Shown: positions 48,423-58,219, counted from the stretch's first letter. The stretch is 64,000 nt of DNA from an uncultured candidatus Porisulfidus sp. (GCA_965204575.1 OZ241993.1:1040586-1104585); one strand, 5' to 3'. Notes: generated by a model not told the origin, from the sequence alone. Made by a program: numbers and translations.

Positions 48423-48611
48423 GAGAGAGGCCCGGCTGAAAGCATGGCGCGTATGTTAACAGGAAGGTCGCGAGAGGCGGGGGCGGGCGGGCCGGCGACC
48501 GATGATTTTTCACCGTTGCGGCCGGCGCGTCCGCCGCGCTTGGAGTGGCGCACACCCGCGCAGGGACAGCGGCACGGCATGTTGTATACTTAGGCGAAAC
48601 CACAATGGTAG

Positions 48612-48631
48612 CCCCCCCCCCCCCCCCCCCC
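48612..48631. repeat. Homopolymeric C tract, 20 nt
   Basis: Counted directly: g + 20 c + tag. Intergenic, 190 nt upstream of the dapD start (opposite strand) and about 170 nt upstream of the secB-like promoter. Confidence 0.95.
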
Positions 48632-48797
48632 TAGAAAGAGTCTTCCCCCGCGCCTCCGCGGCGGGCATCGGGAACGTCCGCGGCACCGCCCCGCGCAGGG
48701 CTGGCCGCGCGAGACGGCGGTCGGGCACGTGGCGCGGCCATCGCCAGGCAGGGCGCGTTCTTTCATGCCGGCCTCAAGCGCCTGCCCAGACCGGGGT

Positions 48798-48826
48798 TTG
48801 ATAAAGAAAAAACTATTTGTTAAAAT
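48798..48826 (+). promoter_or_regulatory. Near-consensus sigma70-type promoter upstream of the secB-like gene
   Basis: TTGATA, a 17-nt spacer, then TAAAAT. It sits in an AT-rich patch within otherwise GC-rich DNA. Confidence 0.5.
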
Positions 48827-48862
48827 CCTGCCCATCATCGGGAAGTGGTATTTGCATCTTTA

Positions 48863-49285
48863 ATGGAACCTAACATCGTTATGCATGGCCGATACATACG
48901 GGATCTATCCTTCGAGAATTTCGGTGCGCCGGCCTTGCCGGGGGACGCCGCCCCCGTCTTCGACATCGACGTCGGGGTGGAGAGCAGGCGGGCCCGGGAC
49001 ATGCACGAGGTGATGCTGTTCGTCCAGGTCACCGCCCGGCGCGAGGAGCAGATCGCGTTCCTGATCGAGTTGAACTACGCCGGCCTGTTCCAGGTCCAGG
49101 ACCTGGACGAGCGGGAGACGCGGCGTTTCCTCCACACCGAGGCGCCGCGCATGCTGTTTCCGTTCGTCGACCGGATCTGCGCGGACGCGACCCGGGACGG
49201 CGGCCTGCCGCCGCTGGCCCTGACGACCCCGGACTTCGCCCTGCTGTACCGGGAACGCGAGGAGAAACCCGCCGCCATCGACTGA
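48863..49285 (+). CDS. secB: SecB-like export chaperone
   Basis: YIRDLSFENFGAP, EVMLFVQVTA, AFLIELNYAGLFQV and APRMLFPFVDRICADATRDGGLPPLALTTPDFALLY parallel E. coli SecB segments. The start is uncertain (GTG 48845, ATG 48863 or ATG 48881). Confidence 0.85.
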   Translation: MEPNIVMHGRYIRDLSFENFGAPALPGDAAPVFDIDVGVESRRARDMHEVMLFVQVTARREEQIAFLIELNYAGLFQVQDLDERETRRFLHTEAPRMLFPFVDRICADATRDGGLPPLALTTPDFALLYREREEKPAAID

Positions 49286-49314
49286 CTACTGAGCCTGTGT
49301 GGAAGCTCAGCCAC

Positions 49315-50727
49315 ATGCAAGAATCCCCCCCCCCCCCCTCAAACCATAACCGGCCTGAACTAGGGCCCGGCGCGGCCCGCGCGCCGGTCCTGCGCCGTCG
49401 CCGTCGCGACGGGTGGCTGCCGCCGGAGAAACGCCGTGCGCGTTCCAGGACGCGGGTGCGCCGGCAGGTGGCGGTCAACGTGCTGGGGGTGTGCTCCATG
49501 CTTTCGCACTCGGTGGCGCCGTACCTGGCGGCGGTCGCCGCGAAAAGCACCACCGCGGTCGGCGCGGTCGGCACGTTCGCCGCCCTGGCGCCCGACGAGG
49601 CGGCGGCGCAAAACCCGGGCCCGGCGGGAGCCAAGGGCGACAAGGGCGACAAGGGCCAGGTGGGCATTCCTGGACGACCGGGCGACAAGGGCGAGGAGAT
49701 GGGCGCACCCCCCGGTGAGAAGGGCGCAACAGGCGTAAAGGGCTCGCCCGGCGGAGAAGGTCAGAAGGGCGATCAGGGACGGCCGGGCAATCGAGGCAGC
49801 CGAGGCATACCGGGCGAAGAGGGGGCGAAGGGCGTGCTGGGATTCAAAGGCCTTCCGGGAGGCGCTGGCGATCAGGGCTCGAAGGGCCCGAGGGGCGATC
49901 CAGGTCCGCAGGGCTCGGCGGGTGTCAAGGGCGATACGGGCCAGAAGGGCGACCCGAAGGCGATCGGTGCCAAGGGCGATACAGGCGAGGCGGGCGCACC
50001 GGGTGCACCGGGCACGCCGGGCGCGCAGGGTTCGCAGGGCGCACAGGGCGCACAGGGCGCGCCGGGCGCACCGGGCGCATCGGGCACGCCGGGCGCCAAA
50101 GGGGAGGCAGGCGCGGGCGGCTTCGATTTTTCCGAGCAGGGGAAGGCGCGGGTCCGGGAGAAGGCCCGGGCCCTGCGGGAATCGGAGAACCCGGCCGACC
50201 AGCGGATCGGTCGGCTGCTGGAAGGCATCCTGGACGAGCTGGCGCCGGCCGCGGGGGGACAGCTGCAGTCGCTGCAGTCCGCCGGCGGGCGGGCGCTGCA
50301 GACCGAGGAGCCGGCGAGTGACAGCCTGACCCTGCTGCGGTATGCCTCCCGCTCCGACACGCCCCGGGCGGAGCAGGCCGGGGCGCTGATGGGCAGCATC
50401 TTCCTGAACCAGCGGGACATCGCCGAGAATCGCCAGAACATCGAGAAGAACCGGCAGGACATCGCCGGGCTGCGGGACGAGGACTACAGGCTGCGCAACC
50501 GCTCGCGCGAGGGGACCGCCCTGGCCATCGCGCTCGGCGGCATCCACTTCCCGCTGGACAAGGACCGGTCCGTCTCGCTGCGCTTCGGGCGCTTCGAGGG
50601 CGAGGAGGCGCTGGCGCTGGGCGCGTCCTTCCGCCTGCGGGAGAACTGGCAGATCGATTTTGGCATGGGCCGGGGGCTGAGCTACCGGCAGAACGGCTAT
50701 TCCGCCGGGCTGAGCTACAGCCGGTAG
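49315..50727 (+). CDS. Collagen-like trimeric autotransporter adhesin paralog 1 (leader, G-X-Y stalk, coiled-coil neck, YadA-type anchor)
   Basis: Arg-rich and hydrophobic leader ending [11 protein letters not shown]. About 55 G-X-Y triplets. [23 protein letters not shown] coiled coil. [11 protein letters not shown] followed by four short beta-strand-like segments ending [10 protein letters not shown]. Alternative starts are GTG 49297, GTG 49456 and ATG 49498. Confidence 0.8.
49325..49338 (+). repeat. Homopolymeric C tract, 14 nt, at the 5' end of the first collagen-like gene
   Basis: Counted directly. It lies 10 nt after the ATG at 49315, read as SPPPPS, and 118 nt before the alternative GTG start at 49456. 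Confidence 0.95.
49618..50121 (+). repeat. Collagen G-X-Y triplet region of paralog 1 (about 168 aa)
   Basis: [47 protein letters not shown] counted 14 G-X-K triplets, 15 Pro in Y against 3 in X, and two interruptions (GEEMGAPPG and GDPKAIGAK). Confidence 0.9.
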
Positions 50728-56450: not shown

Positions 56451-56543
56451 CCTTCGGATGATCCCGCAGCCCTTCAGGCTCCTGTCTCGTTGGAAATGGT
56501 ATGAAGGCCGCCTTGGTTTTGGCGGGCGGATCATCAGGAGAGA

Positions 56544-56634
56544 GAGGCGAACCCTCCAGCCTGGTTGCTGGAAACCGATATTGTCCACCTGGGGCACTTT
56601 AGATGCCGTACCGGACTGCTGGAGGGTTCGCCTC
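56544..56634. repeat. 17-bp perfect inverted repeat with a 57-nt spacer
   Basis: gaggcgaaccctccagc (56544-56560) and gctggagggttcgcctc (56618-56634), upstream of the transposase fragment. Confidence 0.7.
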
Positions 56635-56722
56635 CTCATCCGATCAGATCCAGGCCGGGCGGCCTTTATAATGGCAATCCACAAATGACGGGCTTCGGAA
56701 GCATCGGAGCATCGGCCAAACA

Positions 56723-57349
56723 ATGGAAGGACCCGACATCGTCTGCGTTCACCAGACCAACTTCCTGGAAAAGGAGGAAGCGCTCCGCCTGCGCGACCAG
56801 ATGGCCCAGGCCATCTCCCTGCACGGAAGCCAGGGGACCGTGGGCAGCAGAGACGGGAATTTCAGCGTCGACAAAACCTACCGGAACTCCAAGATCTACT
56901 TCCTCGACCCGTGGAACCCGCCCGACTGCATGGACGGCGACCTGGTGCGGGCGGTGTTCTACAAGATCGCCGGGTTTGCGGAAATCGCCTGCCGCACCAC
57001 CCTCAAGCACCTTGACATCCGCCTGAACGATCTCGCCGGCACCCCGCTTCAACTCGGCCGCTACCGGGTGGGCGAGCGGTACGAGGAGCATTCCGACAAC
57101 AGCGAGAGTTCGCATAAGGGGCGGCTGCTCTCGATCTCCGTGACCGTCTCGAGCGCCCGCGAGGGCGGCCACCTCTTGCTCAGGCGGCTTCCTCCGAGCA
57201 GTCCGGCGGTCGAGGAAATCCGGCAGGACCGGGCCATCGTCGCCTTTCCGAGCTGGGAACGGCACAGCGTGAGCGCCGTCGAGCAAGGGGAACGCTATTC
57301 GATCGTGACGTGGTTCGAAGGCACGCGCGGAAGCCCGGGGCAGCGGTGA
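56723..57349 (+). CDS. P4H-like 2OG-Fe(II) oxygenase (2OG-FeII_Oxy_3 type), candidate prolyl hydroxylase
   Basis: YRVGERYEEHSD (HxD), GRLLSISVTVSSAREGGHL and VAFPSWERHSVSAVEQGERYSIVTWF (distal His and Arg). Confidence 0.75.
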   Translation: MEGPDIVCVHQTNFLEKEEALRLRDQMAQAISLHGSQGTVGSRDGNFSVDKTYRNSKIYFLDPWNPPDCMDGDLVRAVFYKIAGFAEIACRTTLKHLDIRLNDLAGTPLQLGRYRVGERYEEHSDNSESSHKGRLLSISVTVSSAREGGHLLLRRLPPSSPAVEEIRQDRAIVAFPSWERHSVSAVEQGERYSIVTWFEGTRGSPGQR

Positions 57350-57887
57350 CCGAGGCCCTGGGCCCGGACGCGGAAGGCGGGGCCGCCAGGCAGGCGGAAA
57401 CGGAAGAGGGCGTCGGCAGCGCCCTGCCCGAGGCGAGCAACTCACAAGTGCGGTGAATCAAGCGGCAGGCCTGCGGCTACCGCAGCCGCGAACGCGCCCG
57501 CCAAGCCATCTGCTTCCACCTCGGCGGGCCCGGCCTTTGTCCGGGACCTCCGTTCCAATTCCGTGAAGCCCCCCGCACATAGTCGGTCTCCATAGCGTAT
57601 ATAAGGATAAATGCACACAGGCAATGAGGGCAATGAGGGTGCGCGTGGGTTAGGCAATAATGGTAAGATAATCCTGCACCTGAAATGGATACGGTGCCTT
57701 GTATGGATGATTTGTACGGGAGAAGAAAATGGAAGCATTTGATTGGGTTCTCGGCTCCGTACAGATTGTAATTTTAGGATTTTTGTGGACACTGCATAAG
57801 GACATGTCTCGTCTTGGTGAACGAGTAGCTAAGCTTGAAGGATTGTTTGAAGGATTTATTCGTACAGATAGAGAAAGCACCGCATAA

Positions 57888-58112
57888 TCACGAAGTCAAT
57901 TCCTTGCAGGTGATGGTCTTGCCGGCCATCGCCCGGAACAGATCGTCCAGTCGGTCCTGAGTGTGCCGCTCGCAGTTGCCTGCGTTCAGGCGAAAGGTGG
58001 GCTCGTGACAGAGGGCAGATGGATGAACGAAGACAGCCGTGACGCCTGCGTGGGCCTTCAGTGGGCCTTCAGTCACGGTGTCGCGCTTGGCCCACAGGGT
58101 CCAGAGAGACAC
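57888..58112 (-). other. Gene fragment of unknown identity; its last ~16 codons recur at ~1387-1436 on the opposite strand
   Basis: ...DRLDDLFRAMAGKTITCKELTS-stop, against ...TTLFRAMVGKTITCKEPTS in the clpB-proximal insert. 21 nt (aagaccatcacctgcaaggaa) are identical. Confidence 0.3.
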
Positions 58113-58219
58113 CGGAACGCTTTGGTGTAAATAGGATAAATGAAAATCTAAATTTCAAGTATCCTAAAACTACAGATCATTTTTCTGCTTTTCCCCGGAA
58201 CCGGCCATGAGGGGATACC

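What the first reader, a model, noticed from the sequence alone, without database searches (positions are those of the whole stretch)
48423..58219. The collagen cluster is an insertion into the conserved dapD-glnD-map block
Established: in E. coli and many gammaproteobacteria dapD, glnD and map are contiguous and co-oriented. Seen: here dapD (ends 48422) and glnD (58220) keep that orientation but are separated by about 9.8 kb. The insert has a C20 tract at the left edge. On the right side it has a transposase fragment (56208-56450), a long inverted repeat, and a low-GC gene-remnant patch (about 57.4-58.2 kb). Inference: the cluster was acquired horizontally, although its core genes have host-like GC content.
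Basis: partly seen in the sequence, partly recalled or inferred. Interest (0 to 1): 0.5.

Follow-up and report, generated by a model that had tools for sequence, protein, structure and literature searches.

The report
Collagen gene island inserted after glnD
A 9.7-kb block of genes for making and sugar-coating collagen-like surface proteins sits in a spot that is empty, or holds unrelated DNA, in six of the seven related contigs examined; it is an ordinary horizontally acquired island with unusual, animal-like cargo.

Summary
dapD (47595-48422, -) and glnD (58220-60862, -) are co-oriented and 9,797 bp apart. The C20 tract, a transposase pseudogene, a long hairpin repeat and a low-GC patch are all present.

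In related uncultured gammaproteobacteria the junction varies:
- Two genomes have glnD and dapD 57-80 bp apart (empty site).
- The three contigs nearest to the window (glnD 95-96% aa) carry an unrelated 1.1-kb filler.
- One genome carries an ATPase gene.
- One relative (flanking genes 84-93% aa) has a homologous collagen cluster at the same junction, but rearranged.

Every insert starts right after the glnD stop codon and ends about 45-95 bp before the dapD start codon, so this is an insertion hotspot. Homologous clusters lie at five other chromosomal sites. One host pair has Lnt 32% identical but the cluster glycosyltransferase 71% identical.

- The cluster is not host-like in GC: 72.5% against 61%, with GC3 0.96.
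- Poly-C tracts recur in three cluster loci, so the C20 tract is probably regulatory, not an edge scar.
- The acquisition is not recent.

The cargo is a SecB-like chaperone, two collagen/YadA-anchor proteins, a lysyl-hydroxylase homologue, a COLGALT-like/PLOD-GT-like fusion, GalE and a second oxygenase.

The parts
47595..48422 (-). dapD, the left flank (core gene).
   Evidence: TIGR00965 dapD, 436 bits. 91% aa identical to L083.
48423..48490 (.). Original glnD-dapD intergenic DNA (dapD upstream region), retained on the dapD side of the insert.
   Evidence: Aligns with the 57-80 bp spacer of the empty sites L087 and L090, and with all other relatives.
48491..48880 (+). Window-specific junction DNA. 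It holds the C20 tract (48612-48631) and a sigma-70-like promoter, TTGATA-17-TAAAAT, at 48798-48826 in front of the secB-like gene.
   Evidence: No similarity to any fetched locus. Tract. Promoter scan found 2 sites against 0.1 expected.
48845..49285 (+). SecB-like export chaperone, the first gene of the operon.
   Evidence: PF02556 SecB, E 1e-34. Present in the cluster in L081-L084 and L093.
49297..50727 (+). Collagen-like protein 1 with a YadA-type membrane anchor. A C14 tract at 49325-49338 lies 7 nt after an in-frame ATG.
   Evidence: PF01391 Collagen (E 2.5e-22) plus PF03895 YadA_anchor (33 bits, cutoff 22.7). 54 GXY triplets, with Lys in the Y position in 14. C14 tract.
50756..52189 (+). 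Collagen-like protein 2, a tandem paralogue of protein 1.
   Evidence: Pfam as for protein 1. Direct repeats D2-D4 are 77-91% identical at a spacing of 1459-1462 bp. 56 GXY triplets, with Lys in the Y position in 11.
52200..52832 (+). 2OG-Fe(II) oxygenase homologous to the collagen lysyl hydroxylase domain.
   Evidence: Best PDB matches are the human LH3/PLOD3 LH domain (E 6e-14) and the mimivirus L230 LH domain (1e-12). HxD, the distal His and the Arg are conserved in the alignment.
52816..54267 (+). Fusion glycosyltransferase. The N-terminal half is GT25 (COLGALT1-like) and the C-terminal half is a PLOD-type GT domain.
   Evidence: PF01755 plus PF25342. PDB: COLGALT1 E 1e-22 (residues 13-203), LH3 GT domain 2e-40 and mimivirus R699 8e-34 (residues 232-475).
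54269..55079 (+). Nested low-GC (59%) insertion with two small ORFs that have signal-peptide-like N-termini (54287-54709 and 54738-55031). It is absent from all other cluster loci.
   Evidence: No family hits. No similarity in the other loci; elsewhere the GT and galE genes are 44-250 bp apart.
55084..56055 (+). GalE-like NAD-dependent epimerase, presumably supplying UDP-galactose.
   Evidence: PF01370, E 6e-57. Follows the GT gene in L081, L083, L088 and L093.
56055..56450 (-). Transposase pseudogene. It covers the N-terminal ~130 aa of an rve-domain DDE transposase, has an in-frame stop at 56208, and is truncated against galE. It lies at the rearrangement breakpoint relative to L083.
   Evidence: 470 homologues, all matching through their N-terminus. 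Full-length members have rve and sub-threshold IS481/IS3 hits. tblastn extent. Breakpoint.
56480..56670 (.). Long imperfect inverted repeat (hairpin) upstream of the transposase remnant. It is probably part of the same IS or MITE-like remnant.
   Evidence: 17-nt perfect core. Fold z = -6.1. Window-specific, since homology with L083 resumes at 56679.
56723..57349 (+). Second 2OG-Fe(II) oxygenase (oxy2), substrate unknown. It is colinear with glnD in both the window and L083.
   Evidence: PF13640, E 7e-12. HxD...H and RxS are conserved. 91% nt identical to L083 in flank orientation. Only 4 homologue clusters were found; contig lengths suggest three of them share a contig with an L083-type GT protein.
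57507..58100 (.). Window-specific low-GC (53%) patch with small ORFs that match nothing.
   Evidence: A 51-nt repeat is shared with 1386-1436.
58101..58219 (.). Junction segment of about 115 bp directly after the glnD stop codon. It is shared only with L083, the other island-bearing relative.
   Evidence: Alignment A1. blastn extent.
58220..61629 (-). glnD and map, the right flank (core genes).
   Evidence: TIGR01693 (780 bits) and TIGR00500 (317 bits). 85-94% nt identical to six related loci.

Best explanation
Window 48491-58219 is an accessory genomic island. It lies in a flexible-genome hotspot that begins within about 11 nt of the glnD stop codon and ends roughly 45-95 bp upstream of the dapD start codon.

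The ancestral state of this lineage was glnD directly followed by dapD. The island arrived by horizontal transfer from a GC-richer gene pool in which the same operon circulates between distantly related bacteria. That operon is secB-like, collagen/YadA-anchor gene(s), lysyl-hydroxylase homologue, GT25+PLOD-GT fusion and galE.

The following steps are inferred, not shown:
- Different cargo 'alleles' at this spot are exchanged within the lineage by homologous recombination in the conserved flanking genes.
- In the window's lineage the island was then remodelled. The secB-to-galE module lies in the opposite orientation to that in L083, with a decayed IS at the breakpoint.
- The collagen gene was duplicated in tandem.
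- Two low-GC patches were nested into the island.

The predicted product (also inferred) is a surface-anchored trimeric collagen. Its Y-position lysines would be hydroxylated and then galactosylated and glucosylated in the cytoplasm. A dedicated SecB-like chaperone would keep it export-competent. Expression may be phase-variable through the poly-C tracts.
For: Empty sites. L087 has an 80-bp spacer. The outgroup L090 (flanks 85% nt identical) has a 57-bp spacer.

Different cargo at identical boundaries. L085, L091 and L092 carry a 1.1-kb filler of 54% GC. L086 carries a 1.9-kb AAA_14/DUF4143 gene. L083 carries a collagen cluster.

Flank distances give ((L085,L091),window) and (L083,L087). The two island-bearing genomes are therefore not sisters, and each has a closer relative without the island.

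No contig-length match links the glycosyltransferase hits to the 1.6-1.85-Mb contigs of L085, L086 or L087.

Other insertion sites for homologous clusters:
- L081: between hemF and a DUF179 gene.
- L082: next to a DDE transposase, in a locus of 76% GC.
- L084: inside an ABC-transporter operon.
- L088: next to Mo-oxidoreductase, SoxY and TusA genes. This locus has the closest glycosyltransferase, at 85%.
- L093/L094: next to DUF4276/AAA_21, a TnpB-like gene, eno and lnt.

Core-versus-cargo contrast. Between the L093 and L084 hosts, Lnt is 32% identical and the glycosyltransferase is 71% identical.

Composition. The module is 72.5% GC against 61.2% outside the insert. GC3 is 0.96. Tetranucleotide distance exceeds every outside window. 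The cluster is GC-richer than its surroundings in 5 of 6 host loci.

Mobile-element remnant at the breakpoint.

Cargo identity.
Against: There is no integrase, no tRNA target, no flanking direct repeats and no second IS copy. The actual insertion mechanism is therefore not shown.

The window and L083 share the glnD-side junction (about 115 bp) and oxy2 at 90-91% nt, which is like the core flanks at 88-90%. This fits an old single insertion followed by losses as well as it fits recombinational spread.

Sliding-window identity gives only a weak hint of an imported flank. In the first 300 bp of dapD the window is 91% identical to both L085 and L083.

The host taxonomy of most cluster-bearing contigs is unknown. 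No whole-genome phylogeny was possible.

No activity, localisation or phase variation has been tested.
Confidence: 0.85

Rival explanations
1. Ancient vertical inheritance. The island was already at the glnD-dapD junction in the common ancestor of the window, L083, L085, L086 and L087, and was later deleted or replaced in most descendants.
For: The window and L083 share the glnD-side junction. They also share oxy2 in the same position and orientation at 90-91% nt, equal to core divergence. Most other cluster proteins are 74-90% aa identical (the collagen proteins only 42-56%), against 84-93% for core proteins, which is not wildly different.
Against: It needs at least three independent losses or replacements, one of which (L087) restored a clean 80-bp spacer that is colinear with the outgroup L090. 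Even on this reading the island is still an insertion relative to L090. The secB-galE module is more diverged (78-84% nt) than the flanks. GC3 is 0.96 in the window and 0.88-0.90 in L083, which suggests different residence times. Glycosyltransferases at other sites (85% and 82%) are as close to the window's as L083's is (80-81%).
Confidence: 0.2
2. Two independent insertions into the same hotspot. The window lineage and the L083 lineage each acquired a collagen operon separately, in opposite orientations.
For: The two carriers are not sisters. The secB-galE module has opposite orientation. SecB lies on the other side of oxy2 in L083. An IS remnant is present only in the window. GC3 differs between the two. 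The hotspot demonstrably accepts unrelated cargo.
Against: The shared 115-bp junction and the colinear oxy2 block are hard to obtain twice independently, unless oxy2 plus the junction arrived first and the operon was replaced later. That is a hybrid of this explanation and the main one.
Confidence: 0.3
3. IS-mediated (composite-transposon-like) delivery. The cluster was brought in by the rve-family IS whose remnant lies at 56055-56680.
For: A transposase pseudogene and a long hairpin lie inside the island. In L082 the cluster lies next to a DDE transposase, and in L093 next to a TnpB-like gene. The window also holds IS1595 and DDE_Tnp_1_4 transposase genes.
Against: There is only one internal and truncated copy, with no flanking IS pair and no target-site duplication. 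L083, L081 and L084 carry the cluster without any transposase nearby. The remnant sits at an internal breakpoint, which fits rearrangement better than delivery.
Confidence: 0.15

Closest known systems
Flexible (replacement or additive) genomic islands at conserved hotspots between core genes, as described for cell-surface glycosylation and O-antigen loci. This comparison rests on general knowledge; no paper on it was consulted.
   Same: Presence/absence and cargo polymorphism at one fixed intergenic position among related genomes. Surface-structure and glycosylation cargo. Atypical composition. No integrase. Conserved flanks that could act as recombination arms.
   Different: The recombination tracts were not demonstrated. 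The cargo is a collagen-modification operon, not a polysaccharide locus.
Animal collagen lysine modification pathway: LH/PLOD, GLT25D1/COLGALT1 and the LH3 glucosyltransferase (PMC12003778).
   Same: A homologue of each of the three enzymatic domains is present. The lysyl hydroxylase catalytic residues are conserved. The collagen substrates have Lys in the Y position. An epimerase is present that could supply UDP-Gal.
   Different: The domain arrangement differs. The hydroxylase is a stand-alone 210-aa protein, and GT25 is fused to the PLOD-type GT domain. In animals the hydroxylase and GT domain are fused (LH3) and COLGALT is separate. No signal peptides are evident, so modification would be cytoplasmic rather than in the ER. 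No biochemistry has been done.
Mimivirus collagen-modifying enzymes L230 (lysyl hydroxylase plus glucosyltransferase) and R699 (glucosyltransferase) (PMC9546862, PMC12279948).
   Same: A non-animal system that pairs collagen-like genes with lysyl hydroxylase and GT homologues. Both give direct sequence matches (E 1e-12 and 8e-34).
   Different: The host is bacterial, the genes form an operon, the substrate is a YadA-anchored collagen and there is a SecB-like chaperone. A scan of viral contigs for close relatives of the glycosyltransferase found none.
Trimeric autotransporter adhesins (YadA family) and bacterial collagen-like proteins (review: PMC8968730).
   Same: A C-terminal YadA_anchor domain above Pfam threshold and a collagen triple-helix repeat domain.
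   Different: In the full-text searches run here, no report turned up of a bacterial collagen-like protein encoded together with lysyl hydroxylase and Gal/Glc-transferase homologues. Only one paper was opened and the library is incomplete.
Homopolymeric-tract contingency loci, such as poly-C/G phase variation of surface proteins in Bordetella, Neisseria and Campylobacter (from general knowledge).
   Same: Long C tracts lie upstream of, or at the 5' end of, surface-protein genes, and recur across cluster loci.
   Different: Tract-length variation was not observed. The C20 tract lies about 170 bp upstream of the predicted -35 box, not in the promoter spacer.

Membership tests
Genomic island / flexible-genome hotspot | Present or absent at a conserved chromosomal position among close relatives. 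| tested here: met
   There are 2 empty sites, 4 contigs with other cargo and 1 homologous island among 7 related contigs.
Genomic island / flexible-genome hotspot | Composition deviates from the host. | tested here: met
   72.5% GC against 61.2%. GC3 0.96 against a maximum of 0.90. Tetranucleotide distance 0.068 against a maximum of 0.046 outside the insert. The collagen repeats inflate part of this signal.
Genomic island / flexible-genome hotspot | Homologous gene set in unrelated hosts or at other sites. | tested here: met
   Five other genomic contexts. Lnt 32% against glycosyltransferase 71% between two hosts. NCBI labels of Alpha- and Deltaproteobacteria MAGs.
Classical integrative element (integrase-mediated island, ICE or prophage) | An integrase or recombinase gene, a tRNA or att target, and flanking direct repeats. 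| tested here: not met
   No recombinase among the island ORFs. The only tRNA in the window is at 36357. No direct repeat links the two junctions. The viral contig scan was negative.
Composite transposon | Two IS copies bracketing the cargo, with a target-site duplication. | tested here: not met
   There is a single truncated internal transposase remnant. No other fragment of it is in the window, and there are no flanking repeats.
Collagen Glc-Gal-Hyl modification pathway | A lysyl hydroxylase with the Fe/2OG ligands, a GT25 galactosyltransferase domain and a PLOD-type glucosyltransferase domain. | tested here: met
   Pfam and PDB matches, plus the conserved HxD...H...R. This is a test of sequence homology only.
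Collagen Glc-Gal-Hyl modification pathway | Hydroxylysine-linked Gal-Glc actually present on the collagen. | not testable with these tools
   This needs mass spectrometry of the expressed protein.
Trimeric autotransporter adhesin | A C-terminal YadA-type beta-barrel anchor. | tested here: met
   PF03895 at 33.1 and 30.8 bits, against a cutoff of 22.7.
Trimeric autotransporter adhesin | An N-terminal Sec signal peptide and surface display. | tested here: inconclusive
   The N-terminus has an Arg-rich stretch followed by hydrophobic segments. No signal-peptide predictor was available.
Phase-variable contingency locus | The length of the homopolymeric tract varies within a population and switches expression. 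| not testable with these tools
   The tracts are present and recurrent, but read-level data are needed.

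The most novel reading that the evidence does not exclude
The island is one copy of a self-contained operon that moves horizontally between bacterial classes. That operon would give bacteria an animal- and mimivirus-type collagen modification: lysine to hydroxylysine, then Gal-Hyl, then Glc-Gal-Hyl. The substrate would be collagen displayed on the outer membrane through a YadA-type anchor, exported with a dedicated SecB-like chaperone and switched by poly-C tracts. This would be a bacterial collagen-glycosylation system for which my full-text searches turned up no description.
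Probability: 0.45. Interest if true: 0.75.

Novelty: new member of a known kind. Interest (0 to 1): 0.4.

Why it matters
As an insertion it is routine. It is one more accessory island in a hotspot between core genes, and it shows that the glnD-dapD junction is a variable spot in this uncultured lineage.

The value lies in what the mobility says about the cargo. The collagen-modification operon behaves as a transferable unit. It is found at six chromosomal sites, in surrounding DNA of about 58-77% GC, and its enzymes are far more conserved than the one housekeeping protein that could be compared. If the enzymes do what their homologues do, this gives a compact bacterial system for studying, and producing, hydroxylysine-glycosylated collagen. 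It would also bear on where the animal and giant-virus enzymes came from.

Tried and rejected
- Exact look-ups of the window's own dapD and of the 100%-identical glycosyltransferase found no contig on record. The source genome could not be retrieved or named.
It returned only relatives at 75% identity or less, and none had the cluster. Close relatives had to be reached through glnD protein hits instead.
- I looked for recombination tracts in the flanks. Only weak, non-decisive dips were seen.
- I tried to explain window versus L083 by one inversion. The gene orders need at least an inversion plus a transposition of oxy2 or secB, so I left the history unresolved.
- I looked for a second transposase fragment at the other breakpoint and found none.
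- The transposase fragment, the low-GC patch ORFs and the two small secreted ORFs gave no Pfam or NCBIfam hits. The transposase fragment and the low-GC patch also matched nothing in the plasmid collection.
- The AlphaFold model of oxy2, built from a 5-sequence alignment, had pLDDT 32.5 and was unusable, so no fold search was run.
- The viral contig scan with the glycosyltransferase was negative.
- Searching for sample and accession strings in the literature gave nothing relevant.
- An integrative element and a composite transposon were both considered and rejected (see the membership tests).

Full report
**1. What is in the window**

NCBIfam equivalog models identify five genes, all on the minus strand:
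- dapE, 46116-47243
- an ArsC-family gene, 47245-47610
- dapD, 47595-48422
- glnD, 58220-60862
- map, 60859-61629

Between dapD and glnD lie 9,797 bp. Their gene content is as follows:
- a SecB-like gene (48845-49285)
- two tandem paralogous genes with collagen triple-helix repeats and a YadA-type anchor (49297-50727 and 50756-52189)
- a 2OG-Fe(II) oxygenase (52200-52832)
- a GT25+PLOD-GT fusion (52816-54267)
- two small ORFs with no family hits, in a low-GC patch (54287-55031)
- a GalE-like epimerase (55084-56055)
- a transposase remnant on the minus strand
- a second 2OG oxygenase, here called oxy2 (56723-57349)
- a 53%-GC patch

The window as a whole is 62.3% GC.

**2. The listed landmarks**

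- C20 tract. It is at 48612-48631.
- Transposase fragment. It is real and extends from 56450 down to about 56055. An exhaustive HMMER search found 470 homologues, all aligned through their N-termini. Full-length members (420-484 aa) carry an rve integrase-core domain and give sub-threshold IS481/IS3 matches. tblastn shows similarity continuing through an in-frame stop at 56208 until the gene is cut off at galE.
- Inverted repeat. It has a 17-nt perfect core. It folds into a ~190-nt hairpin with z = -6.1. It is unique in the window and in all fetched loci.
- Low-GC patch. 57507-58100 exists, but its ORFs match nothing.

**3. Synteny test**

A scan of GTDB species representatives with dapD returned only distant relatives (75% aa or less). 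Of these 80 loci, 15 have glnD directly upstream of dapD. A further 13 have a gap of 1.2-3.7 kb, which in L005 holds dapC and a transporter gene. The rest lack glnD within 10 kb, apart from L014, where glnD lies about 8.8 kb upstream of dapD. None has any cluster gene there.

A protein search with glnD then revealed a graded, unnamed lineage at 96% down to 59% identity, followed by a drop to 47% (Ectothiorhodospira and Thioalkalivibrio). The junction in members of that lineage is:

| Locus | glnD identity to window (aa) | Content between glnD and dapD |
|---|---|---|
| L085 | 96% | 1.13-kb filler, 54% GC, unrelated to the window's insert |
| L091, L092 | 95% | ~1.1-kb gap holding only small unannotated ORFs, as in L085 |
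| L086 | 89% | one AAA_14/DUF4143 gene (1.9 kb) |
| L087 | 86% | empty, 80 bp |
| L090 | 80% (outgroup) | empty, 57 bp |
| L083 | 88% | a 7.1-kb collagen cluster |

Alignments show that every insert begins immediately after the glnD stop codon. The dapD-proximal 45-95 bp is shared by all of them. The insertion in the window is therefore 48491-58219. The site is a hotspot that has accepted at least three unrelated cargoes.

**4. History within the lineage**

Flank identities give ((L085,L091),window) at 93-96% and (L083,L087) at about 90%. L086 is intermediate and L090 lies outside. The two island-bearing genomes are therefore not sisters.

The window and L083 share about 115 bp directly after glnD. 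They also share an 830-bp block containing oxy2, in the same orientation relative to the flanks, at 90-91% nt. That is about the same as the core flanks (88-90%).

The rest of the cluster differs. Relative to L083:
- the secB-to-galE module is inverted and more diverged (secB 82%, hydroxylase+GT 84.5%, galE 78.5%, collagen 65-83% depending on the segment);
- secB lies on the other side of oxy2;
- the collagen gene is single in L083;
- the IS remnant, both low-GC patches and the C20 region are specific to the window.

GC3 of the hydroxylase and GT genes is 0.96 in the window and 0.88-0.90 in L083. I cannot decide between two histories: one old insertion followed by losses and rearrangements, or spread and replacement of island alleles by recombination. 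Sliding-window identities give only weak hints. Either way the island is derived relative to the empty ancestral junction.

**5. Distribution elsewhere**

The GT fusion has about 55 full-length bacterial homologues at 50% identity or more. Below these come ~600-aa forms at about 30-35% identity, and then the animal PLODs. The retrieved genomic contexts all differ:
- L081: between hemF and a DUF179 gene.
- L082: next to a DDE transposase, in a locus of 76% GC, with a second GT copy.
- L084: inside a PBP/permease/ATPase operon.
- L088: a TARA contig with the closest GT (85%), followed by Mo-oxidoreductase, SoxY and TusA genes.
- L093/L094: followed by DUF4276/AAA_21, a TnpB-like gene, eno and lnt.

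Between the L093 and L084 hosts, the housekeeping protein Lnt is 32% identical and the GT is 71% identical. NCBI labels homologues at 69-70% and 57% identity as coming from Alpha- and Deltaproteobacteria MAGs. The cluster is GC-richer than the surrounding DNA in five of six loci. None of the large contigs of L085, L086 or L087 appears among the GT-bearing contigs.

**6. The cargo**

- Hydroxylase. The 210-aa oxygenase aligns with the lysyl hydroxylase domain of human LH3 (E 6e-14) and of mimivirus L230. The HxD, distal His and Arg residues are conserved.
- Glycosyltransferase. Its N-terminal half matches the COLGALT1 catalytic domain (1e-22). Its C-terminal half matches the LH3 GT domain (2e-40) and mimivirus R699 (8e-34).
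- Collagens. The two proteins have 54 and 56 GXY triplets. Lys is in the Y position in 14 and 11 of them, and Pro in 14 and 15.
- oxy2. It keeps the oxygenase motifs but has no solved relative. Only four homologue clusters were found; contig lengths suggest three of them share a contig with an L083-type GT protein. Its predicted structure was unusable.

Neither the hydroxylase nor the GT fusion shows an obvious signal peptide (my reading of the sequences). I therefore infer that modification is cytoplasmic and precedes SecB-assisted export. The full-text searches turned up no description of such a bacterial cluster, but only one paper was opened and the library is incomplete.

**7. The C tracts**

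Besides the C20 tract there is a C14 tract at 49325-49338, 7 nt after an in-frame ATG at the start of col1. L083 has a C14 tract right after an ATG upstream of its collagen gene. L082 has a C23 tract 79 nt upstream of secB, and also a C28 tract. None of the 80 unrelated loci (1.4 Mb) has a C or G run of 12 or more. A strong sigma-70-like promoter (48798-48826) lies between the C20 tract and secB. The tracts therefore look like a property of this cluster family, with phase variation as the obvious guess, and not like an insertion scar. Homopolymer lengths in long-read assemblies are unreliable.

**8. Verdict**

The interpretation, that this is a horizontally acquired insertion into map-glnD-dapD, is supported.

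Four refinements apply:
- The site is a multi-cargo hotspot.
- The acquisition is old enough to be shared, in rearranged form, with one relative.
- No integration machinery is present.
- The IS remnant marks an internal rearrangement, not the means of delivery.

As an island it is an ordinary member of a known kind. The cargo is the interesting part.

Noticed in passing
window 48612-48631 and 49325-49338; L083 7448-7461; L082 5680-5702 and 12375-12402; L085 13180-13194: Poly-C (or poly-G) tracts of 14-28 nt recur next to secB and the collagen genes in three cluster loci, and one lies in the L085 filler. There are no runs of 12 or more in 1.4 Mb of unrelated loci. The C14 tract in col1 lies 7 nt after an in-frame ATG, which could act as a translational phase switch.
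   Followed up: partly
window 49371-49670 and 50830-51129: The ~200-nt region encoding the Arg-rich N-terminal extension of both collagen genes is 91% identical between the two paralogues. It is also conserved at protein level in L081-L083 from about residue 30. This is an unusual leader or signal region for an autotransporter-type protein.
   Followed up: partly
window 39521-43640: This is a second variable spot, between recO and pdxJ. The 4.1 kb is absent from L085, L087 and L090 and partly shared with L083 and L086. It includes a truncated IS1595-family transposase gene (41026-41637).
   Followed up: partly
window 16000-27800: A low-GC stretch at 16-22 kb shows the largest tetranucleotide deviation outside the island. 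Nearby are two HipA-family toxin genes (21138-22361 and 24468-25769) and a DDE_Tnp_1_4 transposase gene (26155-27774). DNA at 25945-26667 resembles the TnpB-like region of L093.
   Followed up: partly
window 57900-57949 and 1386-1436: A 51-nt stretch is repeated at 88% identity in inverted orientation. In both places it lies at the edge of low-GC DNA. At 57.9 kb it forms the 3' end of a 74-aa ORF with no known family.
   Followed up: partly
L084 6989-18154: In this genome the collagen cluster (three collagen genes, GT, SecB and hydroxylase) sits between the binding-protein gene and the permease/ATPase genes of an ABC transporter operon. The junctions are only 47-267 bp, and no mobility gene is present.
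   Followed up: no
loci L085, L086, L087, L090 and the window's own contig: The lineage appears to have small (1.6-1.85 Mb contigs, some flagged circular), high-GC genomes. It has no named relative: glnD identity drops from 59% to 47% outside the lineage. Both the lineage and its habitat remain unidentified.
   Followed up: partly
L014 1152-10000 (Thiohalophilus thiocyanatoxydans): This named relative has an 8.8-kb gap between glnD and dapD with no cluster genes. The junction may therefore be variable beyond the window's own lineage.
   Followed up: no
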